DNA of 64,000 nt, taken from the NCBI GenBank assembly GCA_000004985.1, contig GG738864.1; one strand, 5' to 3'. Position numbers and translations under genes: made by a program. This DNA is from Naegleria gruberi (Eukaryota). Every line of letters begins with the position of its first letter. Position 1 is the stretch's first letter. Shown piece by piece: positions 3,649-56,567 of the stretch. Under the pieces are notes generated by a model, which saw nothing but the letters and a program-made list of their open reading frames with translations, had not been told where the DNA came from and did no database searches.

Positions 3649-5178
3649 TTAAGGTAAGAACATGGATAAGAATTCATCCATATTTTCATCACGTTCTTGT
3701 TGCTTTGTTTCTTCGTCTTCATCTTGGAGAAATACGTTTTCAAAGGATCCAATCATGGAATCTTCTTGGTTTGTATCAATCATTGAAATCTCATCTAGTG
3801 GTGTTTGTTGCATTGGCACAGTATTGTGAGAAGGTTCTTGTTGGTAAGATTCAGAGATGAGAAAAGATGAAAAATCATAACTTGGAATATCACTGTTTGA
3901 GGAATGGGAAGAGACAGGAGTTCTTGAGACTGGTGAATAACTGTAGCTTGAAGATGCAGTTTCCCTTATTCTCATCTTGTTTGCCTTTTGTTGAGGAATT
4001 TTGATTGGTTGATGGTTACTAGCATATCGTTGTTTGAATTGTTGATAGTTAAAGGATTGAGAAAGTTGACTCAAATCTACACTATTCATATTTACAACTG
4101 ATTGAGTTTGCTGGGAACTGTTTGGTTCATGAACATTACTATTAGCATTGACTGCATTCAAACTTCCACCTCTTGGTGTTGACACTGATGCTCTTCTAAT
4201 ACTGGATCTTCTCTGTCTATGAACTGAATCTGAAGTACCACTTTGAGTATTGCTTCCTCCAACATTGAACATTGAAGTATTGCCATTGCTTCCTTCCAAT
4301 TCTAACAACTTGGTAAAGAAATCAAATTCAGCACTTGGTTGACCTCCAAATGATTGAACTCTTTGCAAATTATTGTGAGCATTATTGGGTGGAGGACTAA
4401 TCATTCCACTATTGTTACTAGTGTATGAGCTTCTTGGAGTTGATGAATTAGAATTTGAATTCAAATCCATCATCATTGAATCAGTCATTCCTCCATAACT
4501 GAAATTATTTGGATATGAGGATGAGATTCTTACAACCTTTGTTGGAGTATAGATACTATCATTACTATAACTATGATACATACTTTGAGCTGATGTATCA
4601 ATAAAGAGTGGATGAGAATCATCACCATTCAATTCTGATGTTGCGGTTGTTGCTGTTGTAACCGAATTGAGATTTTGTTGTTGAGGATTAGTATTATTAC
4701 TATGATACAATTGATTCATCGAATCAGAATGATGCAAACCTGAAACATTAAAGGTAGTTTGCAAGAGAGAAATACCAGATATTGTGTTTCTTCTTTTATG
4801 TGAATAATTGCTATTGGCACTCGAAGAATCATGATGAATGGCAGCAGCATCATATTGAGAGGTGGAGGAGGAGAGGAAATCATCATCGGTTGGAGTTACA
4901 ACTGAATGAGAGGATGAGTTCTTACGTTTCTTCCTATCATTCTTATCAGTCTTGAAGAAAAAGTAGTTGGCTTGAAATTCGGTATTGCTTCTGAATTGCT
5001 TGTTGACTTTGAGCAGTTTATCTCCTTTCAATTGAGTCTTGAGTTTCACCTCATCTGTTAGATCGACAATTGAGAATTTGCCATTACCATTCGAATCATT
5101 CGTTGATGCAGTTGATATTGTTGTGGCAGATGCAATTCCATTATTGTTGGTATTCAATGATGAAGAGGCTTGTTGCAT
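3649..5178 (-). CDS. Ser/Asn/Thr-rich low-complexity protein with acidic C-terminus, 509 aa ORF; function unknown, possibly a regulatory or transcription factor
   Basis: Long uninterrupted ORF with coding-like codon usage. Low-complexity S/N/T tracts, RRxS motifs, acidic tail DEDEETKQQERDENMDEF. No conserved domain recognised. Confidence 0.4.
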   Translation of the reverse strand: MQQASSSLNTNNNGIASATTISTASTNDSNGNGKFSIVDLTDEVKLKTQLKGDKLLKVNKQFRSNTEFQANYFFFKTDKNDRKKRKNSSSHSVVTPTDDDFLSSSTSQYDAAAIHHDSSSANSNYSHKRRNTISGISLLQTTFNVSGLHHSDSMNQLYHSNNTNPQQQNLNSVTTATTATSELNGDDSHPLFIDTSAQSMYHSYSNDSIYTPTKVVRISSSYPNNFSYGGMTDSMMMDLNSNSNSSTPRSSYTSNNSGMISPPPNNAHNNLQRVQSFGGQPSAEFDFFTKLLELEGSNGNTSMFNVGGSNTQSGTSDSVHRQRRSSIRRASVSTPRGGSLNAVNANSNVHEPNSSQQTQSVVNMNSVDLSQLSQSFNYQQFKQRYASNHQPIKIPQQKANKMRIRETASSSYSYSPVSRTPVSSHSSNSDIPSYDFSSFLISESYQQEPSHNTVPMQQTPLDEISMIDTNQEDSMIGSFENVFLQDEDEETKQQERDENMDEFLSMFLP

Positions 5179-12157: not shown

Positions 12158-13650
12158 TTAAAGCTTCTTGGCAAACTCGACTTCTTCTTCGTCTTCCTTA
12201 AGGAATTCAATGAAATCTCCGAGACTCTTATCCTTGTATTCCTCAGATGTTGGATCATATTTAAATACATATTCATCTTCGGTTCCTTCCTTCAGTTTGA
12301 AAAGATCTTGATTCCACTTTTGTCCATTTTCTTCTCTCTTCTTTCTCAATCCACGTTGTTTTTCTTCAATCAAGTTCTTTTGTACGTTTGCATCTTCGAA
12401 TTCACTATCAGCTAAAGCTTTGGTGACCTTGTGCCAAACTCTACGAGATTCGTTTAATTTTTGACTGGCAACCTTCTTTACAAACCATGGAGCATGTTCG
12501 ACTTCCTTAGAATCAAAGAATAAGCTTTGTTTCTTGGTCTTGACACTACGGATTTGAACTTGACCAGTGATTGATCCATTAACCTTGTAGAGACGGTTTC
12601 CATCCTTTTTGATAGAACCCTTAATTTCATTGTCAGTACCAGATTTGAATTGAATCTTGGCAGAATAACCAGTACCTGGGCAAGAGATTTTCAAATCTTC
12701 ATTGATTTCAATACATTGAGTTCCCCATATTAATCCCTTGGCAACAACCCATGGGAAGACAATTTCATACACTTCGGTTTCTGGTTGGTTCAAGAAACGC
12801 ATTGTGATTGTACCTTCCAAGACAATTGATGCACTGTTACCATGGAATTTACTCTTAGGTTTTATCATGGCATTAACGAGGAGATTGTTTTTACGGTTCA
12901 TCAATACACAGGAAGCCATTGGGGGATGGTGAGATACTTGTTCCGCAATATATTCTGTTTTAGAAATTTCACCACTTGATGGATCCTTATGGATCCATTT
13001 ACAAGCAAAAACTTCACCAATAATTGGATTGTATGGTTTGGCTTGCATAATACCACCACGAGGTGTGTGGCTGGTATTACTCAACCACCATTTCAAAACT
13101 GAGATGAAACGTTGTTCTGGATCGAATGATTTGTGGGCACTTTAAAGAAACAAGAAACGTCATTATGTTGTATGTTTGACAGATTTAACACAAAAAGTTC
13201 AAGTGTCATTTTTCGGTTGATGATGAGTTGAAAAAGACGATTGGAGTTGAAAACAAAGTTTGTTGATAGATAAAGTAGATGATCGTGTCCAATAGATAAA
13301 GATCGTACGATTTTTTGATGAAGAAAATTAAATACTACAAAAGTTAAACTAATTACATACCTCAAGATATAATTTTGTGGTCTAACAAAGTAGGAAATAT
13401 ATTCAAGCATACTGATTGGAGCCAACAACGCGGATGGGAGAGAAATTCTGAACAAGTCTGCTCCGGTACGCAATTGTTTAACAACATCCATAATGATTGA
13501 TCCTCTGCTAATACCCTTTTCCTTCAAGGTTGATTCCTCAGCTTTAAATTGAGTTTGTCCATAATACTTTTGTTCTGTTGCGAGTTGTTCATCTGTTGGT
13601 TCGATATCCAAAATTTCGCTACCAGTTGTTGATGTTGGGGTGTCAGACAT
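12158..13650 (-). CDS. Oxysterol-binding protein homologue (short ORP, Kes1/Osh4-like). Exons 13650-13371 and 13139-12158, intron 13140-13370 (GTATGT..CTTTAAAG, 231 nt)
   Basis: OSBP signature EQVSHHPP. N-terminal LFRISLPSALLAPISMLEYISYF matches the Kes1 N-terminus. The two six-frame ORFs overlap at 13093-13096 and are joined in phase by the proposed intron. Confidence 0.8.
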
Positions 13651-14344: not shown

Positions 14345-17300
14345 TTAAGTATCTTCCTCCTTAACAGTGTAGAGGTGAGAATGTTTGTATACATGTCTAA
14401 GTTGTTCCTTAAGGAGATTGAATGGTTTTTGATGTTGTTCAATCTCAGAGTTGTGATTCATGCATTTTTCAATTAGATTCTTGCTGATATCTTGTAAGGT
14501 ATATCCAAATGATTCTCTATATACTCTAAAGAGTTTTGGAAGGATAATTATATTATTGGATTGAGAAGTAGAGTTGTTGAAATTGTTAATAATTTTGATG
14601 TTTTGTAGGAGGAATAATTCTGTTTCCTTTCTGACAAATGATTCATAGTTTTCTGGAGTAATGTATGGGAATAAAGTACAACAATTTCTCATTCTCATAT
14701 TCTTGAATTGTTGTGAGTTTGGAAGGATAGATATTTGAGATTTTTCATTCCACAATAGCTCACCATATCTGTACATTATAAATATCAATCTCAAATCAAC
14801 ATAATTAGAGTAGAAAGAAATAAATCGTGATCTTCTATCAAAAGATTTCATACCATTCCCATTCAAAACATTGATTGGAGGAGCTAACAATTTACTAGAG
14901 CCAACAATATTTTTCTGGTCGTGAGACATATCTGTAACAATACCATTAGGATAGCTCTTGTTTCCTCTCAAAATTCCATCACGAATGTCAGAAAGTGAAA
15001 ATATCAAGCCATCAACTTGATAAGCCATTCTATTATAGAAAATGAAAGTGGCATTATTTCCCACTAGTCTATACTTGCTGCTAGATCCCATTATCAATAA
15101 AGAATGATAGAATAGTGTTAAGAATAGGTTCAAAAAGAAACATCTGAATCTAACTCGTTCATTCTTTTCTTCATGAACATCCATAAGACTAGAAAGATCA
15201 ATTCTTGATAATTCATGGCAAAGAGGAAGTAACTGAGTTAGGTAAATGTGGTTTGTACACACAATTTTTCTAGAATGTTGGGATACAGTCTTGAAGAAAG
15301 TGGCATTTCGGAAATTATACTTTTCATATTTAGGGAATATTCCTTGATACATTTGTCTTAGGTATTCCATTAATTTGTAAAGAACTGCATTAGGTTCACA
15401 CCTATATGGAATGTTTTCAATCGATTCAGGATATGAAAATACGTCACTAATAGGTAAACTCATGTTAATAACTCGGATTGGGTTATCATTACTAAATCTA
15501 TACAAATAATAGCCATCAATAAATGATAGCCCATAGTTAACATGGTGAATAATGTTGGACTCAAGGAGAAGTTGATAGAATTCAACTGCTTGCTTTCTAC
15601 TTTCCATATTAATTACAACAAATGGTTGGCTGAGATCATTATTTTGGGTGTTGTTAAAATTCAAAAGCAAATCTATCGCCTCTTTAGATTCGAAACATTT
15701 TCTGTAAATCTTTCCTTTCAATAAATTATACAATGAAGTTGAATAATTACTTTGCTTTGGGTAACGAACTCTATCCAGTAGGGTAAGGTTATTCTTCAAA
15801 TAGGCTATTACAACTTGAATGTGTGAAACTAACTGATCAATATCGTGTGCCAATGGAAAGAATTTTTTAAGCTTGTTCAATACAATAATATCGTCCTTAT
15901 AGAGAAGAACCAATGAATTGATAGCAGAAAGTGGACCATCTACAATATTATTCTTAGGCTTCTTATCATTGGATGTAACTTGCTTGTACATATTAATCTT
16001 TGAAACCTCTTTCTTATTCAGGAATGATACATCATATTGATACTTTACATATTGGCCATAAATGGTTTGGTTATGAGCTGGTACAATATAAGGGGTTATT
16101 GATTTGGATTCAAACTGATTTTCAATAAAGTATTGAGAAATATATTCATCATATTCCTGTGATCTTTGAACTGATTGATCACTAATATTCTTTTCCTCAA
16201 TTAATTGGTTATTAAATTCGGTGGTATAATTAGAATACATATCCATATCATAACTAGGAATAACATTTCTTTCTATACATTTTCTTGCTTGTAAATTATT
16301 GTAAATAGAATTAACATCTACATTATAGAAATCTCTCAATACTTCAAATGAAATATTTGGATACTCATTACTCATTTTACCTTCTAATGATCTCAAAATT
16401 TCTCCCTGAGGAAGAACAGTTGTAGAGCCATTCTCGTTGAGAGTAAGCTTCATAGAGTTCATAATACTCTTAAGGATTTTTTCATTCTCTGCCACATTAT
16501 CAGAAGGTGTTGGGATTGGTGAAGTAGGTGATTTTTCTTGTTTCTTTTCGTGTGTCTTATTCTCCATTTCTTTCACTGGAAGAACTGATTCGATTTCATC
16601 TTCAACTTCAGAGTTAATAGTCAAAGAGAGCTGATCTAGCCTTTCATCACTCAGGTCTGTTATTTGTCTTGGATTATATGTTTCATCAAAATAGAGCTGG
16701 GAGGTAACTTGATTAGATACTTCCTCTTCATCATCTGAGTCATCAGAGTAATCGTCACAAGAGTCTTCTTCATCAGTAATCATACTTAAATCCCTATCAT
16801 CGTGTAAATAAATATCACCACTTTCCAAATCCCACAAATGTACTCCAAACAATCTAATGTGGAAACTTGGTTTATAGTTACCCAAAAATATATTGATAGC
16901 ATGTTGTTTCCACTCATCTTTAAAGTTACTACTATAATATCTTTTCATATTTGTCATTAAATCAGCCAAAACACCTCCTCTATTGTGAATATCAACACTA
17001 ACTGTTCTACTTCCACTGTATTGAATAGCAATATGGTCACTAACTTGTTCATACATTTGCATTAAAATTAAAATGAATTGACCATGGTGAACAAGATGAG
17101 GTGATTCAATAATTCCCAGTGAACATAATTGTTCTCCAAGAACATATTTGGCAATAATAAATTGAGCTACACCTGTTCTATCAAGACAATCAATACAATT
17201 AGTTCTTAAAACACCAGATTGTTCCTGTATCACTTTTCCATACTTGGATGTTGTGAAAAATTTACATTGTCTTACATGATTTTCTGCAATTGCATGGAGT

Positions 17301-19090
17301 TCATTCAATGCCTTTTCAGGTTTGTCTTTAATTGCATTCCTGAAATCAAATGGAACATATTCTATATGCTTCTTTTGTTTGAATGGTTCTTCATTTTTGT
17401 AAATATTCCTGTTAAGATATTCTATGCAAATCTTGAATTTTTCTCCCAATATTATTTCTCTTGGTTTTTTCTCGTGCTGTTTCACTAGATCCAGACACAT
17501 GATTGGAGAACCTTCGTATCTTTCGAATAGGTTATTGAAATGATGCATACTATCCAGATAGAGAGGATCAAATTTTGTAATAATAATATTAGGTTTTGAG
17601 AGTAGGTTTGATGTGGATGCTTTTGTTGTGGTAGTAGTAGTATTCTTTTGATCGTTTTCATCGACAGTGGTCGTGGTAGTGGTCATTGTTGTAGTGGTAG
17701 CAGTAGATTGAGACCAATATAGAGGAATACTTCCTCTCACTTGAACAAAGCTACTAAATGCACCTTGAGATTGATTATTGAATAAATGGTGATTTGCTTC
17801 ATAAACTATTTGCTCAATTTCAACATGATTGGCCACATGACCTCCATCTGAAATACCTCGTTTAAGGTATCTAGTACCAGCATAATATCGACTTCTCCTT
17901 GCAATAACTGTCAATACAATAGATATATTACTGTTACCTGTTTTAATTTGATTTTTCTGGAGTGTTTTGTTGAATTCTTCATGTTGAGAAGGTTTCATTA
18001 ATTCCTTTGAAGAGTTTCTTTTAACTGGCACTGGTTTGGTATAATCAGCAAGAGCCATTGAAACCTTGGATTGAATAAAGTGGCCATGAATGCATGGACA
18101 CATCCATTTAGACATTTTCGTCCTCTTCAATGGTTCAAGAAGATGTGAATTCCAAACAAACATATCACATGTTGTGTTTTTTGGTTCATCTCCATAAGTC
18201 ACTATTGGTGTAGAGTTTTGTTGCAATGTTTTTGTGAGATCATAGTTATAACTAAAGTAAAAATCCTGATTCAAATTAATATTATTAAATAATTCCTTAT
18301 ACTTGTCTTCGATTAACTGTTCTTGTTTTGAAAGGTTGTCATGCATAGATAATTTCACTAATTTAGTATCTTTAATTTCATAGACACTAGCATTACCAAT
18401 CATTCCAACTTTAAGTCTATCCGTTATCAAAACCAAATAATGATGAGATTTGAGTTCAATAAACCCCAAAATGCCATAAATATTATTAGTATGGAGTTTG
18501 ATATCTTGTTGAATACTCTTCATTGCAAATTTTATCATGTGCAATAGATCATTGATTTGTTTCAAGCTATACTCTCCAGCATCTTCATTTAAATAATTGA
18601 CAATGTCACAATCAGCTCCATTGGGTCTATCAATTTTTAACATTTTATACTTTGTTTTTGATCCATTGCATCCAACAAGATAAAATCTATTATATGCCTC
18701 GTATAATGTAAAGTTGCTATACTTTTCACCAAATGTAAAATCAATTTTACTATATTCACATTCAAATGATGAATTAAATTCCTGTTGAGGAATATCGTCT
18801 CCTCCCGTCTGAATATCCGTATCAGAATTGGTTGTGATGGGCTGAAATGATGAAATTGGAGGTTGAATTGGTGATGATGGTTCCACTACTTGTTCTTCAA
18901 CATTTCTCATTCGGGATTGATCTAATATTGGCGAATCATCATTGAATTCGTAGGTTGGTGATTTTTTGGATTTTTGATCACCATAGGGTGTGTTCTTTTG
19001 TGGGCTCGTATTTGAAGATGAAGGAACGAGCAACCTTTTGATGAACATTTTTTTTGTTAAAAAATCTTTTAAAGAAGCACTTAATATCAT
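14345..19090 (-). CDS. SAC-domain phosphoinositide phosphatase, very large (1581 aa) with long S/N-rich extensions
   Basis: Sac catalytic motif RTNCIDCLDRTG (CX5R) and upstream RYYAGTRYLKRGISDGGHVANHVEIEQIV. Single uninterrupted ORF. Confidence 0.75.
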   Translation of the reverse strand: MILSASLKDFLTKKMFIKRLLVPSSSNTSPQKNTPYGDQKSKKSPTYEFNDDSPILDQSRMRNVEEQVVEPSSPIQPPISSFQPITTNSDTDIQTGGDDIPQQEFNSSFECEYSKIDFTFGEKYSNFTLYEAYNRFYLVGCNGSKTKYKMLKIDRPNGADCDIVNYLNEDAGEYSLKQINDLLHMIKFAMKSIQQDIKLHTNNIYGILGFIELKSHHYLVLITDRLKVGMIGNASVYEIKDTKLVKLSMHDNLSKQEQLIEDKYKELFNNINLNQDFYFSYNYDLTKTLQQNSTPIVTYGDEPKNTTCDMFVWNSHLLEPLKRTKMSKWMCPCIHGHFIQSKVSMALADYTKPVPVKRNSSKELMKPSQHEEFNKTLQKNQIKTGNSNISIVLTVIARRSRYYAGTRYLKRGISDGGHVANHVEIEQIVYEANHHLFNNQSQGAFSSFVQVRGSIPLYWSQSTATTTTMTTTTTTVDENDQKNTTTTTTKASTSNLLSKPNIIITKFDPLYLDSMHHFNNLFERYEGSPIMCLDLVKQHEKKPREIILGEKFKICIEYLNRNIYKNEEPFKQKKHIEYVPFDFRNAIKDKPEKALNELHAIAENHVRQCKFFTTSKYGKVIQEQSGVLRTNCIDCLDRTGVAQFIIAKYVLGEQLCSLGIIESPHLVHHGQFILILMQMYEQVSDHIAIQYSGSRTVSVDIHNRGGVLADLMTNMKRYYSSNFKDEWKQHAINIFLGNYKPSFHIRLFGVHLWDLESGDIYLHDDRDLSMITDEEDSCDDYSDDSDDEEEVSNQVTSQLYFDETYNPRQITDLSDERLDQLSLTINSEVEDEIESVLPVKEMENKTHEKKQEKSPTSPIPTPSDNVAENEKILKSIMNSMKLTLNENGSTTVLPQGEILRSLEGKMSNEYPNISFEVLRDFYNVDVNSIYNNLQARKCIERNVIPSYDMDMYSNYTTEFNNQLIEEKNISDQSVQRSQEYDEYISQYFIENQFESKSITPYIVPAHNQTIYGQYVKYQYDVSFLNKKEVSKINMYKQVTSNDKKPKNNIVDGPLSAINSLVLLYKDDIIVLNKLKKFFPLAHDIDQLVSHIQVVIAYLKNNLTLLDRVRYPKQSNYSTSLYNLLKGKIYRKCFESKEAIDLLLNFNNTQNNDLSQPFVVINMESRKQAVEFYQLLLESNIIHHVNYGLSFIDGYYLYRFSNDNPIRVINMSLPISDVFSYPESIENIPYRCEPNAVLYKLMEYLRQMYQGIFPKYEKYNFRNATFFKTVSQHSRKIVCTNHIYLTQLLPLCHELSRIDLSSLMDVHEEKNERVRFRCFFLNLFLTLFYHSLLIMGSSSKYRLVGNNATFIFYNRMAYQVDGLIFSLSDIRDGILRGNKSYPNGIVTDMSHDQKNIVGSSKLLAPPINVLNGNGMKSFDRRSRFISFYSNYVDLRLIFIMYRYGELLWNEKSQISILPNSQQFKNMRMRNCCTLFPYITPENYESFVRKETELFLLQNIKIINNFNNSTSQSNNIIILPKLFRVYRESFGYTLQDISKNLIEKCMNHNSEIEQHQKPFNLLKEQLRHVYKHSHLYTVKEEDT

Positions 19091-19104
19091 TCCGAATATT
19101 TTGA

Positions 19105-19980
19105 TTATTTATCAGAATTTGAATCATTGGATGGTTTCCTATTCGAATACGAATATTGAAGTGCAAATTTAACACAACGTTGGAAATAATGACCTTCCCA
19201 AAAGAATTTTTTGCAAGTTGGACATTTTGTGACTGTTTGACCGTACAGATCATAAATTCGTTTTCCTCCCATAATTTTGGTCAATTCTTGAATTTCTTCT
19301 TCAGTAGTTGCTTTGATACACTGTACAGGATCGTTGCATTTCAAACATCTGGTGTAAATTTTTGCTGGATGAAACATGAGGTGGAATGATTTTACAATAT
19401 CTGAAATTGAGTCATGAAACTCAACTTTTCTTGAATCAATGAAAAGATATCGAATTTGTTTTGTTTCCTCATTATTCGAATTTTCTTCATTTTCTTCCTC
19501 GTCACTATCATAATAATCTTTCACTTTTGGTTTAGTTCCCTTGTTTTCACTCTTAATTTTTGAAGCCAAAGAAGCAGATCCAGTAACTATTATTCTATTC
19601 TCTGATCTAGCTTTATAAATAATATAATTCGTGGAATAGGATGGATCACTAATACAATCATATCCCAGTAATCTGATATGTTTGGCAATTTTTGAAATAC
19701 TTGTATCAGCAATAAATTTTGTATTTCGGAAAAAGCCATTAATTTCAGTTTGTTCTTCCTCAGTACAATCCACAAGAGGTTTATCTTGTTTTAAAACTCC
19801 CTTCGGAAATGTAAAATTCGATGTTTGTTCATTATTCTCCTTTTCCTCTTGATTCAGTACGAGAGAATTTGTTTGATTGATAATAGACATCATTTCTTCA
19901 TCCAAAAATTCATCTTCCTCTCCATTTGCTTGTTCGTCCACATTCCGAGCCTCCATCATAGGTTCATTACTTGCTAACAT
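19105..19980 (-). CDS. Mut7-C / PIN-like RNase domain protein with a C-terminal zinc ribbon, 291 aa
   Basis: IAKHIRLLGYDCISDP...RIIVTGS resembles the Mut7-C motif (LaRwLRlLGyD...RilLTrD). C-terminal CLKCN...CPTCKK Cys pairs. Its stop lies only 14 nt upstream of the SAC gene ATG on the same strand. Confidence 0.55.
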   Translation of the reverse strand: MLASNEPMMEARNVDEQANGEEDEFLDEEMMSIINQTNSLVLNQEEKENNEQTSNFTFPKGVLKQDKPLVDCTEEEQTEINGFFRNTKFIADTSISKIAKHIRLLGYDCISDPSYSTNYIIYKARSENRIIVTGSASLASKIKSENKGTKPKVKDYYDSDEEENEENSNNEETKQIRYLFIDSRKVEFHDSISDIVKSFHLMFHPAKIYTRCLKCNDPVQCIKATTEEEIQELTKIMGGKRIYDLYGQTVTKCPTCKKFFWEGHYFQRCVKFALQYSYSNRKPSNDSNSDK

Positions 19981-20207
19981 TTTTTATTTGTCTTTGCAAC
20001 AACTATTGTGTATTTCTTCAAATGGAAAAGAGTAGCATCTTCATGTTACGCTCTAAAATAGTACATTCTTATTACACCAGTTATTAATATTACCATTCAT
20101 CATCAAGTTGTTTCCTCTTCTTCCTACCTTGATAACATAAGAGAACGTTACGAAAGCAAGACTTTCTAAAAAATTTTGAAGTTGAAAAAATATTCAAAAA
20201 AATTGAA
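19981..20207. promoter_or_regulatory. Putative bidirectional promoter between the divergent Mut7-C gene (minus) and the RNA polymerase I subunit gene (plus)
   Basis: A 227-bp AT-rich spacer between two divergent start codons. Inferred from position only. Confidence 0.35.
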
Positions 20208-37516: not shown

Positions 37517-37658
37517 ACGGATAAAACCATTGTACTTTTGATAAAACAACATATAATCGCGATTTAGGACCTTTAATAAAACAAAAACTATTTAATTATA
37601 ATTTATAATACAATGTAGTATTAGTCTGTAGAATCCAATACCAATTAATTAATATTAT

Positions 37659-39355
37659 TTGATGATGAAAACTTTATTAACAACAATAATTATAAAAATG
37701 TCATCATCAGCATCTCCTCAACCACAACCACAACAAGTGAGCAATAACAACTCCGTGCTGGTGATTCAACTCTCATCTTATGGTATACGGTATGATTGGA
37801 ATGATTTAGAGTCGACAGAGCCAAAAACTCTCATCAATTGTATGGCCATTCCAAAACACATTATTCAGTCCTTTGCCAAGCCTTCCCAATCACACCCGAC
37901 AACAACAATAGACGATCATGAGGATGATGAGGTTCCTCTACCGTCCTCTTCATCATCAACTTTAAAGGATCAAACAAAACATTCCTTCCTAAGTTCTACT
38001 TGTGAAAAACAAGTCATGTCAATTAGAGGTAAAATTCTAGTGGATAGAAAAGTACTGCCAGAAAATAGGATTGAAACTGATAATTATTTGGAACCAGTGA
38101 CAATGGAAAATAGTAGTACAATCAAACAGAAATATACCTCTCAAGAATATGAATTATCGAGTTTTCTAGTTGGTAAACAAGCCATTGATACAAAGAGAAT
38201 TTATCCAAATGATTTTGTATTATATTTTCCAATCAAGTATGGATTGTTAAATTGTGATTTGACTGGTTATGGACATATTGATGAAAATGTTGCTTTGGAA
38301 ATTCAAATTAATTTGTTATCAAGATGTATTGAAGAATTAATTCAAACATCATCTAGTACTAGCTTTTCTTTATTGATGATTTTCAGTGATACATTCCTAT
38401 CACAACAATTGAAACATTTAAAGAGAATTATTGAGGATTTATTAACTCAATTTACAAATATCGAGAATATTTCCATTCAAAAGGATAGTGTAATGTCACT
38501 TTATGGAAGTGGAATCTCTCATCAACAGAATGAGCTCTATACTGTAGATATGGGTCTGACAAAGACATCTATTTATGCCTATCAACCAAATGGAAGATTG
38601 GCAAGTGTAATTCATTATCCATATGGAGGATATGATGTATATCATTTAATTATGGAATATTACAAATGTCAAAATTCAATCACAAGATAGATATTTTCAC
38701 AAATTTAGTCGAGTATGATGAAAATGTTAGAAAGTATTGTTTGACACTCAAATCAAACACTCACCAAGAAACAGTTCAGCATTTACACAATATTTATTTG
38801 GAAGACACTCAAGAATTTGCTTCATCGATATCAGTTTCAACAGATGTTTTCTACATTGCCAGTAATTTATATTTCAATACCAAGTTATTGCCCTCTCCAA
38901 AGAAGAAACTCTACTCTCTATTGAATCCAACACAACAATCCAAGATTGCATCCATTGAAAAATACCTTTCAAAGATTTTCAAAGGAGGAACAGGTAGTGT
39001 CACCATTTGTTTAACAGGTGGATTTTCAAATATTCAATTCTTCCCAGAACACTTGAAGGAAATGCTTAAAAAGAAGAGAATCAAGATATTAATTTCGAAT
39101 GAAAGAGACAAATTAGTTCCATCCCATTGCACCACATGGAAAGGAGGAGTAATTATTACACACATTATGAATCCTGACAATTATCAATATGAAGAGGATG
39201 ATTCCACATCCAATGCCTCCAATACTGACAAATCCAATCTCACCAACAAGTTATTCTTCCACAGAAATGAACTATTCCAGCACTCTTCTCAATCTTTGGC
39301 ATCAAACATTCCAAAATTTGTCAATAGTTCCATTCTCTTAGAAAGAACTCTCTAA
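37659..39355 (+). CDS. Divergent actin-fold (actin-related protein-like) protein. Exons 37659-38636 and 38687-39355, proposed intron 38637-38686 (GTATAT..CACAAG, 50 nt)
   Basis: Actin-fold motifs VLVIQLSSYGIRY, TVDMGLTKTSIYAYQPNG, ICLTGGFSNIQFFPEHLKEML. The 37659..38690 and 38666..39355 ORFs are in different frames; the 50-nt intron joins them in phase 0. A frameshift is the alternative. Confidence 0.5.
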
Positions 39356-40708: not shown

Positions 40709-42348
40709 TTACGCCTCAATTGGAAAGGTATGAAAACGCTTTGGTATCATTGCATTGCCATAAGCAGTTTCATTTCTTAATATTTTCCAAGTGTTCAAGT
40801 TATCCGACATTAACTCATTCATAAAACCATTTTGAATAATAGCAGTTCTGAAATAGCTCACAAGGTAATCCTCTTTGCTTCGTCTAATTGCTAATCCTCT
40901 TAAACATAGCCCATTCACTTTCAAAAGACTAACACAAAAATCAACATCCTGTTTCAGCTCTTCATCAATAAATAGAGTACAGAGAGGATTTTCCATGCTT
41001 GCTTGAAAAACAAAATCTCTGTCTTTCTTAAGTGATTCATCAACGTAATTCATTATTTCATGATCTTGTTTTAAAAGTGGAAGAATAAAGGATTTGTCTG
41101 TTTTGAATTCTTGGGGCATGAAATAGAGAAGAGATGGAAATGAATTCATTAAGAGTTGAGAGTTGAAATCTCTGTCACTTTTAAGTCTACCAGATGCGTG
41201 CCTAAAAGCAAAAGTGTTTTGAAGCATTGCTATTTCAAGAGTTTCTAAATCATCCCTCAAATGTTCAGAAGCATATTCCAGTTGATGTCCATTTTTAAGT
41301 ACGCAAGCTTGTACAATTTCCTATCTGGTAGACTTATCAGGAGAAGCTCGTTGGATTCAGCTAATTTCAGAATGTCCTCTCTATCCATAAATACTGGAGT
41401 CTCCAGAGAATTGGAATGGGTTATTAGTTGGTACTTTGCAAAATATAGATCCGATTTCAATTGATCTGATGCAAATCTGAATGCTCCATTACAGTTCTGT
41501 ACTGCCTTCTCCACAACTTCTCTTTTTCAATATGAATTTTAATTGAAAAATCAAGCTTACCTATCATTTCTCAAACGGTAAGATGCATGTTCTAATTCCA
41601 TACCATATTTGCTAACAACATTCAATACTAACTCTTTGTCATCTTTCCACTCTTCTGGTGCATAAGCTAACGGGAAAAAATTATTGAGCTCTTTTCTCAC
41701 TCTTTTTAAAAATTCCACATTTTCAGTTAATGATTTAGAGGCATATGTTATCACAAAAGGTGATTGCTTAATAGCATCCATAACAAAATCAGGATCCTCT
41801 CTTAATTGCATAGAAGCCTTTTCCAAATAATTGGCATCTATTTGTATCAATCGTTTCATAAATTTTTGTTTCCTTTTCAAATTACAGAATCTAATAGCTG
41901 TATGTTTCTCTTCCAATGCCCATTCAAAAAACCGATCCGTTTCTAACACTTTCGTTGAAGTATATAAAAGAATTTTAACATTAACTCTAGCCAACCTTAT
42001 CACAAATTCCACATTATTCTGCAAATGTTTCTTCAGGTGAGGAATTGAATAAACTATTGATCTGAAATTTGGTGGAAAATTCTCTATCAATCTCATCATG
42101 AATTTTTCAATCACTTCCAAATCATTCATAAATTCAATCGGAATAAAAGAATGTTGTCCATATTGATTAAAAGCAATGGATGGAATTTTGTATAGCAGAA
42201 AATTCATTCTCTCCGATAACCACTTGGCCAATCCTCTACATTCTCTTCTGTATTTTCCCTTGAATATTTGGTAGAGGAAATTGTTATTTTCTTGAGAAAA
42301 GTCTTTGAGGATGAATGTAATGGGAAGGCTCGGATCAAGTTGTTTCAT
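40709..42348 (-). CDS. DUF4116-repeat protein, disrupted as sequenced. Exon 42348-41561, 39-nt intron 41522-41560 (GTAAGC..AAAAAG), exon 41521-~41295, then a +1 frameshift at a T5/A5 run near 41292-41296 before the rest of the ORF to 40709
   Basis: Repeated ~40-aa motif (LEYASEHLRDDLETLEIAMLQN; AFRFASDQLKSDLYF; AFRHASGRLKSDRDFNSQLL; ITYASKSLTENVEF; ELEHASYRLRNDREVVEKAVQNCNG) characteristic of DUF4116. Three consecutive six-frame ORFs; the splice is phase-consistent. The frameshift may be a homopolymer sequencing error or a pseudogene lesion. Confidence 0.5.
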
Positions 42349-42387
42349 TTTTTTTTATTGTAAACTTTCGAGTTAAAGATTGGCAAG

Positions 42388-43827
42388 TTATTCTTCTATT
42401 CCAACCAAGTAGTACCTTAAAGAACCACTGTCTGTTGCAGTGCAGTGAAATGCATCAATAATTGGAAGTTTTTCAAGAAGTGAATCAATTACAAATTCTA
42501 TAAAAGAGATGACTGAATCGAATTGGCTGTCAATTTTCAATTCGTTTAAACTCTTATCTCCCTTTCCCCAAACCACTGTATCGTATGTTCCATAGGCTAT
42601 TCCACTTAACCCATAATATTTCTTTGTTTTAGGATCAATGATGGAAAATGAATGTTCACCTTCGTATCCATCACATCCATAGTAGAACACTTCCTTAACT
42701 TCTAATTCACATTTGTAAATATCATTATTTAAACGCATGTCGAATGTTGTCTGGATAAAGTGCATGTCTTTCCTGAATGCGTTTGAATAGGCAGCTCCTT
42801 TGACATTTGTAATATCAAATAGTGAACCCTCATCTTGGTTAAAATTATTCAAACAATTGGAATACATATTGGAAACTACTCTTTCCATTATTGATACAGG
42901 TTCGTTCAATTTTTTAACATTTTCAAGAGGTTTTTGAATTAGTCTTTCCCTCAAATCATCCGAATATTTGAATTTAAGCGCATGATTGCAGACCTGATCT
43001 CTTAAAGTCAATTTTGGTTCAGAGGTAAGTTCATGCTTTGGAAAATCAAGGAAAATGCGTAATAACTTAAAGCAGAACGAATCCCCTCTGAATCGTTCCT
43101 CTAAAAGTAAAGAACCAACATAATTAAAGAACGTTGGATTTTGCCAATACTCTACCTCTTGATAAAGTCCAGATTCCTCTCCATCAAGTTGATGAACAAG
43201 AATGTTGTTTACACTTGGGTCAATATTCAGCAAATTCCAATCAAATGTTGGATCTTCATTTTGTTCAACAGTTATATAGACAAGCTCATCCTCTGTATTC
43301 GATAAATGTATGTGTATTCTAATTTTGATACCTTCCTTAATATGAATCATTAATTCAATATGGGAGCCATCATCGACCCAACCAACAGATGAAGAGATCA
43401 CAGTCATTGTTGGATACTTGTCAACCACTAAAGGATTTGGTGTATCACTAAAAAAGCCAGGCTCTTTAGAAGCCAGAGTCAATGAATACAGCTTTCCATC
43501 AATCCACTTCTTTAAACTCACGTACAACTCATCATTTCTCTCAGTGCTTAAACATTCCACACAATAATCCATCAAATTTTTGACAGCATAAAAAGAGGGA
43601 ACCCTCCGTGATCCTACAATTTCATTCCAAGTTGTATTAACAAGTCTACAATTCAACAATTCTTCAATGGTCATATAATTCATGATATAACCGAGACTAT
43701 CATAATCTAAATTTGCTAAATGATTTATTTTCAAGCCAAATGATGAGCCTCCTCCTTCAATCTTGCTTCTCTTCTCATCACTTGCATCAGATGGCGAAAG
43801 AGATTCCGAATCAAAGTGTCGTTTCAT
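42388..43827 (-). CDS. F-box domain protein, 479 aa
   Basis: N-terminal F-box-like LDYDSLGYIMNYMTIEELLNCRLVNTTWNEIV. The rest is unassigned. Confidence 0.5.
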   Translation of the reverse strand: MKRHFDSESLSPSDASDEKRSKIEGGGSSFGLKINHLANLDYDSLGYIMNYMTIEELLNCRLVNTTWNEIVGSRRVPSFYAVKNLMDYCVECLSTERNDELYVSLKKWIDGKLYSLTLASKEPGFFSDTPNPLVVDKYPTMTVISSSVGWVDDGSHIELMIHIKEGIKIRIHIHLSNTEDELVYITVEQNEDPTFDWNLLNIDPSVNNILVHQLDGEESGLYQEVEYWQNPTFFNYVGSLLLEERFRGDSFCFKLLRIFLDFPKHELTSEPKLTLRDQVCNHALKFKYSDDLRERLIQKPLENVKKLNEPVSIMERVVSNMYSNCLNNFNQDEGSLFDITNVKGAAYSNAFRKDMHFIQTTFDMRLNNDIYKCELEVKEVFYYGCDGYEGEHSFSIIDPKTKKYYGLSGIAYGTYDTVVWGKGDKSLNELKIDSQFDSVISFIEFVIDSLLEKLPIIDAFHCTATDSGSLRYYLVGIEE

Positions 43828-48057: not shown

Positions 48058-48779
48058 TTTTTATTGATTGTTTTTTTAGCCTTGGAGACAGGAAATGGTT
48101 TCTACCATGGGTTAATGATGGATGAAAGATCAATTATTGTGGTGGGAGGTTCATTTGGTGGTTAGTTATGTGTGATCAAGTAACGGTCGATTCAGATCTC
48201 TTAATATTTAAAAAGTTTTTTGAAAAATTGAAATTGTTTCAATAATTATGAAAATTATTGGTGTTTAAATTATGACGCAAGCAAATTGTCATCTTTAGAA
48301 TTTGATGAGCTGTAATATTTTATTTCACACACTTCCATGAATCCTTTTAGAACTGGTAATTTTGATTTCAATTCTTCATTTGCTGAAAAATAGAAGTTAT
48401 GGAGACAATGGTGCCACGGTTCGCTTGTTGTGGATTTAGGTATTTTTGAAAAATTTCCTTAAATAATACTCCAGTTGAAAAAAATGATATCAAAACTTGG
48501 TTGATTATCTCAATAAATATAGGAAGGCACACCTTCCTGTTTTTAACGCATGTAGATCAGACTATTATACATCACATTGGTAAGCTATAAGATCTGAGCA
48601 TGTGTGGATCCCAAACCAGAGAGATAATGACAGGTACCAAACCCAACACATGACCAAGAGGTGATACATCTACCAATCCAATCCAATTACATTATTAAAG
48701 CTATCCTAATTTCCAAAATTTCAGTATCATTCTATATTTTCTAAACTGCAAAAGATTTGAAATAAACTAAAATTTTATC

Positions 48780-48850
48780 TCGAACGCCGGGAATTGAACC
48801 CGGGTCGCCAGAGTGACAGTCTGGAATGCTACCACTATACCACGCCCGAT
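48780..48850 (-). tRNA. tRNA-Asp (anticodon GTC), 71 nt
   Basis: Minus-strand sequence TCGGGCG-TG-GTATAGTGGTAGCAT-T-CCAGA-CTGTCAC-TCTGG-CGAC-CCGGG-TTCAATT-CCCGG-CGTTCGA-G folds as a cloverleaf: 7-bp acceptor (two G·U pairs), anticodon loop CTGTCAC, T-arm with GGTTCAATTCC. The D-stem has one A·C mismatch. No encoded CCA. Confidence 0.8.
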
Positions 48851-55949: not shown

Positions 55950-56567
55950 ATGGATGAAAATACTTTTGTTAGAGAATGTGTAGAGTTGATGTCGAGAGAC
56001 GAAATGAAGAAACAAGGCTGGAATTGGATGGGAGAGTACGCAGAATTAATGACACATATTCATTCTCCACAAATCAATTTTGAAAATATTTCATCGGCAC
56101 AATCCGATCATTCTTTTGACAATGAGGAAGATATTGTGGAGGATATTGAAGATGTAACTACCAGCGATACTTCTTGGATAATTAATTCTTCAAATCAAAA
56201 TTCTCAAATTTTCTCAATTAGATATCACATTGTTTATAATCAGATATTTAAATGTCCAACACTTTATTTCAATATTTATAATAATAATAATGAATTATTA
56301 TTACCTACTCAACTCATGGAAATATTTCAAAAGATTGGAGAATCTAAAGGACTAATTCCAACTGAAAATTTCAATCCCTATACGTTCATCACACAAGGAG
56401 AGCATCCAATTCTTGGTACAATTTTCTATTATATCCACCCATGTGAAACTAGAACAGTTATGGAAACTGTTTGCACAAACACTCCAGTCAATTATGTTTA
56501 CACATGGCTTACATTTTTTGGAAAAGTGGTATTGGTAAATACTCCAATAATTACTGAATTTTGTTAA
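55950..56567 (+). CDS. ATG10: Autophagy E2-like enzyme Atg10-like, 205 aa
   Basis: Motifs IRYHIVYNQIFKCPTLYFNIY and catalytic-Cys context FYYIHPCETR resemble Atg10 (Y.I.YS.SY.VPVLYF...HPC). Size fits Atg10 rather than Atg3. Confidence 0.55.
   Translation: MDENTFVRECVELMSRDEMKKQGWNWMGEYAELMTHIHSPQINFENISSAQSDHSFDNEEDIVEDIEDVTTSDTSWIINSSNQNSQIFSIRYHIVYNQIFKCPTLYFNIYNNNNELLLPTQLMEIFQKIGESKGLIPTENFNPYTFITQGEHPILGTIFYYIHPCETRTVMETVCTNTPVNYVYTWLTFFGKVVLVNTPIITEFC

What the first reader, a model, noticed from the sequence alone, without database searches (positions are those of the whole stretch)
19085..19110. Second ultra-tight tandem pair: Mut7-C gene stop 14 nt upstream of the 1581-aa SAC phosphatase ATG
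The Mut7-C ORF ends TAA at 19107-19105 and the SAC-domain ORF starts at 19090 on the same strand, in a different frame. Either the two are co-transcribed, the SAC gene starts at a downstream Met (e.g. MFIKRLL at ~19048), or an unrecognised splice fuses them. Two such pairs within 35 kb suggests a real genomic habit rather than chance.
Basis: seen in the sequence. Interest (0 to 1): 0.6.

Follow-up and report, generated by a model that had tools for sequence, protein, structure and literature searches.

The report
Tightly packed neighbouring Naegleria genes
Two ordinary, separately annotated genes of the amoeba Naegleria gruberi sit about 56 bases apart; the apparent 14-base gap comes from counting a probably unused upstream ATG, and such tight spacing is normal for this compact genome.

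Summary
The ORF geometry is as described. A 291-aa Mut7-C ORF on the minus strand ends with TAA at 19107-19105. The longest SAC-phosphatase ORF begins with ATG at 19090, 14 nt further on. The window is Naegleria gruberi, and both genes are already annotated as separate neighbours: XP_002678017.1, and XP_002678016.1 (1567 aa), which starts at the second Met (19048).

Three lines of evidence favour 19048 as the real start:
- It has the A-run start context seen at most starts in the window and at the orthologues' starts. It scores +6.2 bits (99th percentile of all ATGs), against -5.5 bits for 19090.
- In a second N. gruberi-like strain, 8 of the 13 differences over 1984 nt fall in the 38 nt between the two ATGs. 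Most would change amino acids.
- No orthologue has a counterpart of the 14-aa extension.

The real spacer is therefore about 56 nt. The orthologous spacers are 62 nt (N. lovaniensis), 118 nt (Willaertia) and 925 nt (N. fowleri). I found no sign of a fusion, a bridging intron or a polycistronic layout.

Tight packing is a genuine, already published habit of this genome: the median 3' UTR is 39 nt and some stop codons double as poly(A) signals. The finding is ordinary and of low interest. No transcript data could be examined here.

The parts
19105..19980 (-). Mut7-C (PIN-like RNase domain) gene, 291 aa plus TAA stop. Identical to N. gruberi XP_002678017.1 / NAEGRDRAFT_66915.
   Evidence: ORF. 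Pfam PF01927, E 2.5e-23. Exact match to the NCBI protein. Orthologues lie directly upstream of the SAC gene in N. lovaniensis, N. fowleri and Willaertia magna.
19104..19113 (-). One-mismatch variants of the AAUAAA poly(A) signal around the Mut7-C stop: GATAAA at 19113-19108 abuts the stop codon and AATAAT at 19109-19104 overlaps it. Candidate 3'-end signal for an ultrashort 3' UTR (inferred).
   Evidence: The W. magna orthologue has an exact AATAAA over its stop, and in N. lovaniensis AATAAA ends 6 nt before the stop. AAUAAA use, stop codons that double as poly(A) signals and 22-39 nt 3' UTRs in N. gruberi come from PMC11529991.
19049..19104 (-). 56-nt spacer between the Mut7-C stop and the probable SAC start codon. 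Holds the elements listed in the next rows.
   Evidence: Orthologous spacers are 62 nt (N. lovaniensis), 118 nt (W. magna) and 925 nt (N. fowleri). The spacers cannot be aligned between species.
19095..19100 (.). AATATT, a palindromic hexamer that is the most enriched upstream motif of genes in this window. It lies 52 nt upstream of Met15. Candidate promoter or transcription-start element of the SAC gene (inferred).
   Evidence: 13 of 20 genes carry it at -70..-9, against 2.2 expected (p 1.3e-8). Against a non-coding background, 3.2 are expected (p 1.3e-6). The commonest position is -28..-33. It is unchanged in strain L003.
19088..19090 (-). Upstream in-frame ATG ('ATG1') that opens the 1581-aa maximal ORF. 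Probably not the main initiation codon.
   Evidence: Start-context score -5.5 bits, the 43rd percentile of all 2673 ATGs in the window. The reference annotation does not use it, and the 1581-aa sequence is absent from the 15-billion-protein collection. No orthologue has an equivalent.
19056..19093 (-). Hypervariable stretch between two N. gruberi strains: 7 substitutions and one 3-nt indel in 38 nt.
   Evidence: Window compared with metagenome contig L003. Eight of the 13 differences over 1984 aligned nt fall here (Fisher p 3e-10). If the stretch were translated, 4 of the 5 codon changes would be non-synonymous and one residue would be inserted.
19046..19055 (-). Run of 7 A (19055-19049) followed by ATG (19048-19046): the probable SAC initiation codon (Met15 of the maximal ORF, Met1 of XP_002678016.1).
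   Evidence: Start-context score +6.16 bits, the 99.25th percentile. An A-run precedes most ORF starts in the window and the SAC starts of N. lovaniensis, N. fowleri and W. magna. Identical in L003.
14345..19048 (-). SAC-domain phosphoinositide phosphatase gene (Fig4-like SAC domain plus DEP plus DUF547), 1567 aa plus stop.
   Evidence: Pfam hits. 100% identical to P0001 = XP_002678016.1. Orthologues P0002-P0004.

Best explanation
These are two independent, ordinary genes packed closely together in the gene-dense nuclear genome of Naegleria gruberi. The upstream gene encodes a 291-aa Mut7-C RNase-domain protein and has its own promoter region, 236 nt shared with a divergently transcribed RNA polymerase large-subunit gene. 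The downstream gene encodes a large SAC/DEP/DUF547 phosphoinositide phosphatase. Its translation most likely starts at the ATG at 19048 (Met15 of the longest ORF), not at 19090. The real coding-to-coding spacer is therefore 56 nt, not 14 nt.

The inferred layout of that spacer is as follows:
- AAUAAA-like hexamers sit on the Mut7-C stop codon. They would give that mRNA a 3' UTR of roughly 10-25 nt.
- An AATATT element lies at 19100-19095. It is the most enriched upstream motif of genes in this window.
- A 38-nt unconstrained linker follows. It happens to contain an in-frame ATG.
- The A-rich leader that precedes most start codons in this organism comes last.

Shown here: the gene identities, the annotation, conserved gene order with variable spacing, the start-codon context statistics, the clustering of strain differences, and the absence of a polycistronic layout. 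Inferred, not shown: where the Mut7-C mRNA actually ends and where the SAC mRNA actually begins. Because the two genes are so close, some control elements of the SAC gene may overlap the end of the Mut7-C gene. That could explain why the adjacency has survived from Willaertia to Naegleria.
For: Identity and annotation: the window is N. gruberi. Both proteins are annotated as consecutive separate genes, and the SAC model starts at Met15.

Start context: most ORF starts in the window, and 8 of 10 annotated starts in N. lovaniensis, are preceded by an A-run. ATG 19048 scores +6.16 bits (99.25th percentile of 2673 ATGs) and ATG 19090 scores -5.5 bits (43rd percentile). The orthologous SAC starts are also A-run ATGs.

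Strain comparison: 7 substitutions and a 3-nt indel fall within 19093..19056. Only 5 substitutions fall in the other 1928 nt. The next 325 SAC codons are identical at the protein level.

Orthologues: the N-termini have no counterpart of the 14-aa extension.

Spacing: the Mut7-C to SAC gap is 62, 118 and 925 nt in three relatives. Annotated tandem gaps of 38-94 nt are common in those loci. In a more distant relative the SAC homologue sits 44 nt behind an unrelated gene.

Compaction in the window: a 39-nt tandem gap, and convergent stop codons 1 nt apart or overlapping by 4 nt.

Published direct-RNA sequencing of N. gruberi: AAUAAA signal, median 3' UTR 39 nt, and stop codons doubling as poly(A) signals with a median 3' UTR of 22 nt (PMC11529991). 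Ten of 33 stops in the window overlap AWTAAA.

AATATT enrichment upstream of genes, with one copy in the spacer.
Against: No transcript, 5'-end or proteomic data for this locus could be examined.

The upstream ATG and the open frame are both retained in the second strain, because the indel is 3 nt. A minor 1581-aa isoform is therefore not excluded.

The Mut7-C stop carries only one-mismatch variants of AAUAAA. The next exact AWUAAA on that strand is about 730 nt inside the SAC gene, so the Mut7-C mRNA might run into the SAC gene.

The stretch between AATATT and the start codon is free of ATG in the 12 other genes that carry the motif. I tallied this by eye from the sequences printed; roughly 4 out-of-frame ATGs would be expected, p about 0.02. 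This hints that transcription may start near the motif, in which case ATG 19090 would be on the mRNA, though only a few nt from its 5' end.

The start-context model was trained on first-ATG calls from 24 ORFs of the same window, a few of which are probably wrong. AATATT is not enriched in N. lovaniensis (1 of 10 genes).
Confidence: 0.8

Rival explanations
1. The SAC protein really starts at ATG 19090 (1581 aa), at least for a share of transcripts that begin inside or just after the Mut7-C coding region. The true gap would then be 14 nt and the SAC promoter would lie wholly within the Mut7-C gene.
For: The ATG and the open frame persist in both strains, since the indel is a multiple of three. 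There is a purine at -3 of this ATG. ATG depletion between AATATT and the start codons of other genes (tallied by eye) suggests that transcription may begin near the motif, which lies 5 nt upstream of this ATG.
Against: The start context is that of a random ATG, -5.5 bits at the 43rd percentile, whereas Met15 has the typical A-run. The 14 codons carry 5 codon changes, 4 of them amino-acid changes, plus an insertion between strains that differ at 0.26% elsewhere. There is no orthologous extension. The reference annotation uses Met15. From established knowledge of scanning initiation, an AUG within about 10 nt of the cap is recognised poorly. The chance of a spurious upstream in-frame ATG is about 20%.
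Confidence: 0.12
2. Mut7-C and SAC are co-transcribed as one bicistronic (operon-like) mRNA from the Mut7-C promoter. SAC protein is made from that RNA by reinitiation or internal entry, or after an unknown processing step. The adjacency is conserved for that reason.
For: Same-strand adjacency is conserved from Willaertia to Naegleria while the outer neighbours differ. There is no exact AAUAAA between the Mut7-C stop and the SAC start. Naegleria belongs to Discoba, the group whose euglenozoan members use polycistronic transcription.
Against: Heterolobosea show about 2 genes per same-strand run and no polycistronic architecture (bioRxiv 10.64898/2026.07.29.740908). This window averages 1.4, with a maximum of 3. 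N. fowleri has 925 nt between the genes. Twenty-four AUGs precede the SAC start on such an RNA, and the Mut7-C AUG has a strong context, so leaky scanning is ruled out. The spacer has no polypyrimidine tract and no conserved element. It does carry the same AATATT and A-run features as the upstream regions of other genes in the window. More distant SAC homologues have unrelated upstream genes.
Confidence: 0.05
3. An unrecognised intron removes the Mut7-C stop codon and fuses the two ORFs into one Mut7-C-SAC protein.
For: Only the proximity and the shared strand. Some N. gruberi genes do have short introns.
Against: The last 300 nt of Mut7-C contain no GTRAG donor. Mut7-C orthologues in three other species are intronless and stop within 2-45 residues of the last aligned residues of the domain (the conserved YS near its end). 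Spacer length and frame relation vary freely between species. None of the 120 listed SAC homologues carries PF01927, and all Mut7-C homologues found are stand-alone proteins of 291-339 aa.
Confidence: 0.02

Closest known systems
Compact gene spacing with ultrashort UTRs and stop codons that double as poly(A) signals in protists (Giardia; shown for N. gruberi by direct RNA sequencing, PMC11529991)
   Same: Coding-to-coding gaps are tens of nucleotides. An AAUAAA-type signal lies at or on the stop codon: exact in the W. magna orthologue, 6 nt upstream of the stop in N. lovaniensis, and one-mismatch variants in N. gruberi. Ten of 33 stops in this window overlap AWTAAA, in the same direction as the published 11-13% for AAUAAA alone.
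   Different: The Mut7-C stop in N. gruberi itself lacks an exact AAUAAA, so its use as a dual signal is only inferred. The 3' end of this particular mRNA was not seen.
Overlapping or multigene transcription, and gene-order conservation, in compacted eukaryotic genomes (microsporidia and nucleomorphs; Williams et al. 2005 as cited in PMC2099475; Corradi et al. 2007, PMC2099475)
   Same: Intergenic spacers are very short. Of the three adjacencies around this locus, only the tightest (Mut7-C to SAC) is kept between genera. [quoted passage not shown]
   Different: Naegleria is free-living, with a genome of roughly 40 Mb (from memory) and more than 15,000 predicted genes, not a reduced parasite genome. 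No transcript overlap has been demonstrated here. N. fowleri tolerates a 925-nt insertion in the spacer.
Polycistronic transcription units of Euglenozoa (kinetoplastids, diplonemids, euglenids)
   Same: Same eukaryotic supergroup (Discoba). Same-strand neighbours with a short spacer.
   Different: There are no long same-strand gene arrays (mean run 1.4 genes here; about 2 reported for Heterolobosea). The spacer has no polypyrimidine/AG trans-splice signal. The downstream gene has upstream motifs of its own.
Bicistronic mRNAs of green algae (PMC7896298; title and abstract seen, mechanism recalled from memory)
   Same: Two conserved, adjacent same-strand ORFs with a short inter-ORF distance.
   Different: In those mRNAs the downstream ORF is reached by leaky scanning past a short upstream ORF with a weak start (recalled, not read here). 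Here the upstream ORF is 876 nt, has a strong start context and places 24 AUGs before the downstream start. The spacing is not conserved (56 to 925 nt).

Membership tests
Two independent monocistronic genes in a compact genome (ordinary annotation) | Each ORF is a complete, separately conserved protein with its own start and stop. | tested here: met
   Mut7-C orthologues of 256-339 aa end shortly after the domain. SAC orthologues of 1318-1603 aa start with their own A-run ATG. Both are annotated separately in N. gruberi.
Two independent monocistronic genes in a compact genome (ordinary annotation) | The downstream gene has the upstream sequence features typical of other genes in the same genome. 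| tested here: met
   A-run start context at the 99th percentile. AATATT lies 52 nt upstream of Met15, within the -17..-53 range seen for other A-run-start genes.
Two independent monocistronic genes in a compact genome (ordinary annotation) | Separate transcripts: a poly(A) site for the upstream gene and a transcription start for the downstream gene. | not testable with these tools
   No RNA data are accessible. The supplements of PMC11529991 are not held.
Stop codon doubling as poly(A) signal | AAUAAA (AWUAAA) overlaps the stop codon. | tested here: not met
   Only the one-mismatch variants GATAAA and AATAAT occur at the N. gruberi Mut7-C stop. The W. magna orthologue has an exact overlap. 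The locus may work like a dual-use site but is not an exact member.
Stop codon doubling as poly(A) signal | A 3' UTR of about 20 nt for the transcript. | not testable with these tools
   This needs poly(A)-site mapping of NAEGRDRAFT_66915.
Euglenozoa-type polycistronic transcription unit | Long arrays of same-strand genes. | tested here: not met
   Same-strand runs in the window hold 1-3 genes, mean 1.4. The literature gives about 2 for Heterolobosea.
Euglenozoa-type polycistronic transcription unit | A trans-splice acceptor (polypyrimidine tract plus AG) ahead of each ORF, and a spliced-leader RNA. | tested here: not met
   The spacer is 45% pyrimidine and its longest pyrimidine run is 7 nt. 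Spliced-leader RNA genes were not searched for.
Bicistronic mRNA translated by leaky scanning or reinitiation | Weak start context or a short upstream ORF with few AUGs, so that ribosomes reach the second ORF. | tested here: not met
   The Mut7-C start is 'aaataaaaaATG', a strong context. Twenty-four further AUGs precede the SAC start.
Bicistronic mRNA translated by leaky scanning or reinitiation | A short inter-ORF distance conserved across species. | tested here: not met
   56, 62, 118 and 925 nt.
Mut7-C-SAC fusion gene | A continuous frame or a bridging intron, and fused homologues elsewhere. | tested here: not met
   The frames differ and a stop codon is conserved in four species. No GTRAG donor is present. 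No SAC homologue carries PF01927, and no Mut7-C homologue longer than 339 aa was found.

The most novel reading that the evidence does not exclude
The SAC gene may depend on transcription that starts in or upstream of the Mut7-C gene, either as a functional read-through or bicistronic RNA or from a promoter embedded in the Mut7-C coding sequence. That dependence would be what has kept the two genes adjacent from Willaertia to Naegleria. It would be the first functional multigene transcript reported in Heterolobosea, the sister lineage to the polycistronic Euglenozoa.
Probability: 0.05. Interest if true: 0.55.

Novelty: already known. Interest (0 to 1): 0.1.

Why it matters
It matters little beyond annotation hygiene. 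The case shows that taking the longest ORF in Naegleria can add spurious N-terminal residues. It also shows that the A-run before the ATG is a useful guide to the real start. The tight spacing illustrates a published property of this genome: prokaryote-like gene density and 3' UTRs of about 20-40 nt. If long-read RNA data did show functional co-transcription, that would bear on how polycistronic transcription arose in Discoba, but the evidence here points the other way.

Tried and rejected
- **De novo poly(A) signal from the 33 stop regions of the window.** Only generic AT-rich k-mers were enriched. My initial TGTAA idea was present downstream of only 10 of 33 stops, so I dropped it in favour of the published AAUAAA signal with an upstream UGUA auxiliary element (PMC11529991).
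- **Aligning the spacer between species.** It cannot be aligned (53% mean column identity), so there is no conserved non-coding element.
- **Protein alignment of SAC N-termini.** The first ~90 residues of the N. gruberi protein are not conserved in other species. The alignment cannot place the start by itself; it only shows that no orthologue has the extension.
- **Contig look-ups for P0001 and P0003.** Neither is on record. The N. fowleri locus was reached through its Mut7-C protein instead.
- **Rfam scans of the junction and of the N. fowleri 925-nt spacer.** No hits.
- **Supplementary tables of PMC11529991, searched for the locus tags.** Not held.
- **Literature search on read-through and bicistronic terms.** It returned only viral papers. 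A search containing "3' UTR" was rejected by the tool.
- **My brief belief that the Mut7-C gene was missing from the N. gruberi annotation (after).** This was wrong. It is XP_002678017.1, hidden inside a 90%-identity cluster.
- **AATATT as a pan-Naegleria motif.** It is not enriched in N. lovaniensis (1 of 10 genes).
Full report
**Observation.** On the minus strand, a 291-aa ORF (19980..19105) ends with TAA at 19107-19105. The longest form of the next ORF (19090..14345, 1581 aa) opens with ATG at 19090. That leaves 14 nt (19104..19091) between the two ORFs, which are in different frames. Pfam assigns Mut7-C (PF01927, E 2.5e-23) to the first. It assigns SacI homology (Syja_N, E 1.7e-72), DEP and DUF547 to the second.

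**Source and existing annotation.** The SAC protein is 100% identical to N. gruberi XP_002678016.1 / EFC45272.1. That protein is 1567 aa and begins MFIKRLL, which is Met15 of the maximal ORF at window position 19048. The Mut7-C protein is exactly XP_002678017.1 / EFC45273.1 (NAEGRDRAFT_66915). The two are therefore already annotated as consecutive, separate genes with a 56-nt coding-to-coding gap. The 1581-aa sequence is not present in the 15-billion-protein collection.

**Which ATG is the start?** Three independent lines favour 19048.

- *Start context.* Most ORF starts in the window are preceded by a run of A (for example aaaaaATG). So are 8 of 10 annotated starts in the N. lovaniensis locus, and the SAC starts of N. 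lovaniensis, N. fowleri and Willaertia magna. I built a position weight matrix from 24 other ORF starts of the window. It scores 19048 (aacaaaaaaaATG) at +6.16 bits, the 99.25th percentile of all 2673 ATGs in the window. It scores 19090 (aatattcggaATG) at -5.5 bits, the 43rd percentile, which is indistinguishable from a random ATG.
- *Strain comparison.* Metagenome contig L003 (ERZ929261) carries the same locus from a closely related N. gruberi-like strain. Over 1984 aligned nt there are 12 substitutions and one 3-nt indel. Seven substitutions and the indel lie within 19093..19056, between the two ATGs. Four lie in the 876-nt Mut7-C coding region, one in the 976 nt after Met15, and none in the 76 nt upstream of Mut7-C. 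The clustering is highly significant (Fisher p about 3e-10). Read as codons, the changes are one synonymous change, four amino-acid changes and one inserted residue across 14 codons. The following SAC residues on the contig are all identical. This is the behaviour of unconstrained non-coding sequence, not of a protein N-terminus.
- *Orthologues.* None has a counterpart of the 14-residue extension. Cross-species conservation begins only near residue 90 (SDTDIQTGGDDIPQ), so the protein alignment alone cannot place the start.

From base composition, a true start acquires an upstream in-frame ATG before the next stop in about 20% of cases. ATG 19090 therefore needs no special explanation.

**Neighbourhood in relatives.** Mut7-C lies directly upstream of the SAC gene on the same strand in three relatives:

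| Species (locus) | Gap |
|---|---|
| N. lovaniensis (L001) | 62 nt |
| W. magna (L002); Mut7-C orthologue 45% identical, E 4e-51 | 118 nt |
| N. fowleri (L004) | 925 nt |

The 925-nt spacer in N. fowleri has no convincing ORF and no Rfam match. In Willaertia the outer neighbours are different genes, so of the three adjacencies around this locus only the tightest is retained between genera. In two more distant environmental homologues with SAC and DEP domains, the upstream gene is unrelated. One is a cytochrome b5/FMN dehydrogenase gene 44 nt away on the same strand. The other is a low-molecular-weight phosphatase gene on the opposite strand. The spacers cannot be aligned between species. All Mut7-C orthologues are intronless and stop shortly after the domain. 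No listed SAC homologue contains PF01927, and no Mut7-C homologue exceeds 339 aa. The last 300 nt of Mut7-C contain no GTRAG splice donor. A fusion by splicing is therefore very unlikely.

**Is tight spacing a habit of the genome?** Yes, and it is already documented.

- In this window an F-box gene (43827..42388) is followed after 39 nt by a DUF4116 gene (42348..41557) that has its own A-run ATG.
- Convergent genes have stop codons 1 nt apart (methyltransferase and Asterix, 36585/36587) or overlapping by 4 nt (Atg3-like and WD40, 56567/56564). Further pairs are 27, 40 and 53 nt apart.
- Annotated tandem gaps in the N. lovaniensis and Willaertia loci run from 38 to 547 nt, and a quarter are 64 nt or less.
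- Published work describes Naegleria gene density as being in the prokaryotic range (PMC9465069), with 58-73% coding sequence (PMC9928731).
- Direct RNA sequencing of N. gruberi found an AAUAAA signal 15-20 nt before the cleavage site and a median 3' UTR of 39 nt. It also found AAUAAA overlapping 11-13% of stop codons, with a median 3' UTR of 22 nt for those genes (PMC11529991). In this window 10 of 33 stops overlap AWTAAA.

**Is this polycistronic transcription?** The window has runs of only 1-3 same-strand genes, mean 1.4. A comparative study reports about 2 genes per run and no polycistronic architecture for Heterolobosea (bioRxiv 10.64898/2026.07.29.740908). On a hypothetical bicistronic RNA, 24 AUGs would precede the SAC start, and the Mut7-C AUG itself has a strong context. 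The spacer has no polypyrimidine tract. The 925-nt spacer in N. fowleri shows that close coupling is not required.

**Anatomy of the 56-nt spacer (inferred function).**

- The Mut7-C stop is flanked and overlapped by one-mismatch variants of AAUAAA: GATAAA at 19113-19108, which abuts the stop, and AATAAT at 19109-19104, which overlaps it. The Willaertia orthologue has an exact AATAAA over its stop, and in N. lovaniensis AATAAA ends 6 nt before the stop. With the published 15-20 nt distance from signal to cleavage site, the Mut7-C mRNA could end around 19100-19080.
- At 19100-19095 lies AATATT. An unbiased scan found this to be the most enriched hexamer at -70..-9 upstream of 20 genes with A-run starts in the window. 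It occurs in 13 of 20, against 2.2 expected (p 1.3e-8). Against a non-coding background, 3.2 are expected (p 1.3e-6). Its commonest position is -28..-33 from the ATG, and other copies lie at -44..-53. The SAC copy is at -52 from Met15.
- Both AATATT and the A-run with ATG15 are unchanged in strain L003. All eight strain differences lie between them.

The spacer thus looks like a miniature but typical N. gruberi upstream region.

**Caveats.**

- The Mut7-C stop has no exact AAUAAA. The next exact AWUAAA on that strand is at 18376, so read-through into the SAC gene is possible.
- The interval between AATATT and the start codon contains no ATG in the 12 other genes with the motif. I tallied this by eye from the sequences printed; roughly 4 out-of-frame ATGs would be expected, p about 0.02. 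This hints that transcription might begin close to the motif. ATG 19090 would then be on the mRNA, but only a few nt from the cap, where scanning ribosomes recognise AUGs poorly (established knowledge of scanning initiation, not tested here).
- AATATT is not enriched in N. lovaniensis (1 of 10 genes).

**Verdict.** The sequence observation is accurate, but the 14-nt gap is an artefact of extending the ORF to its maximum. The most likely arrangement is two independently expressed, already annotated genes 56 nt apart, in a genome where such spacing and ultrashort UTRs are normal and published. My confidence is about 0.8 for the main explanation, 0.12 for a genuine 1581-aa start, 0.05 for functional co-transcription and 0.02 for a splice fusion. 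Novelty: already known. Interest: low.

Noticed in passing
window-wide; example copies at 19100-19095, 5207-5202 (upstream of the gene at 3649-5178) and 20189-20194: The palindromic hexamer AATATT (often CAATATT) is the most enriched hexamer at -70..-9 upstream of start codons. It occurs in 13 of 20 genes against 2.2 expected, with a commonest position 28-33 nt before the ATG. It may be a core-promoter or initiator element of N. gruberi. It is not enriched in the N. lovaniensis locus.
   Followed up: partly
window-wide start codons (for example 19980, 20217, 42348, 43827): Most ORF starts are preceded by a run of 4-9 A (aaaaaATG). This is a strong species-specific start context that separates real starts from spurious upstream ATGs. 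ORFs whose first ATG has a poor context (575, 29533, 37662, 55835, 57934) may be mis-started.
   Followed up: partly
window 19056-19093 compared with L003 964-1003: Seven substitutions and a 3-nt indel lie within 38 nt between two strains that differ at only 0.26% elsewhere, with 0 differences in the 76 nt of the other intergenic stretch. This is far above any plausible neutral rate, so it points to a single complex mutation or a local hotspot. It is unexplained.
   Followed up: partly
L004 11021-11945 (N. fowleri): The Mut7-C to SAC spacer is 925 nt in N. fowleri, against 56-118 nt in relatives. There is no convincing ORF (the longest is 87 aa) and no Rfam match. It is probably an insertion of unknown origin in the middle of the ancestral short spacer.
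   Followed up: partly
window 36585/36587 and 56564-56567: Convergent gene pairs have stop codons 1 nt apart (methyltransferase + / Asterix -) or overlapping by 4 nt (Atg3-like + / WD40 -). Their 3' UTRs must run antisense into the neighbouring coding region.
   Followed up: partly
window 42349-42387: This is the tightest unambiguous tandem pair in the window: an F-box gene followed after 39 nt by a DUF4116 gene. AATAAA sits 31 nt after the F-box stop and runs straight into the A-run of the next gene's start. The upstream mRNA is therefore predicted to end inside the downstream coding region.
   Followed up: partly
L002 9112-13957 compared with window 14345-19980: The Mut7-C to SAC adjacency is conserved between Naegleria and Willaertia although both outer neighbours differ. 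This fits the idea that very short spacers resist rearrangement (PMC2099475), but it rests on a single locus.
   Followed up: partly
window 12158-13650 (minus strand): The oxysterol-binding-protein gene is split across two overlapping ORFs in different frames (12158-13096 and 13093-13650). A short intron or a frameshift is likely. The orthologues are single 416-aa models.
   Followed up: no
window 37651-37745: The ORF at 37662 has a poor start context. An A-run ATG at 37699 in another frame is followed by CAA|GTGAGC, which suggests a short first exon and an intron.
   Followed up: no
window 48779-48849 (minus strand): A tRNA-Asp (GTC) gene is the only tRNA in the window.
   Followed up: no
L006 1851-6015: In one environmental relative the SAC+DEP part and the DUF547 part are called as two genes 49 nt apart. 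This could be an intron, a frameshift or a real split of the three-domain architecture.
   Followed up: no
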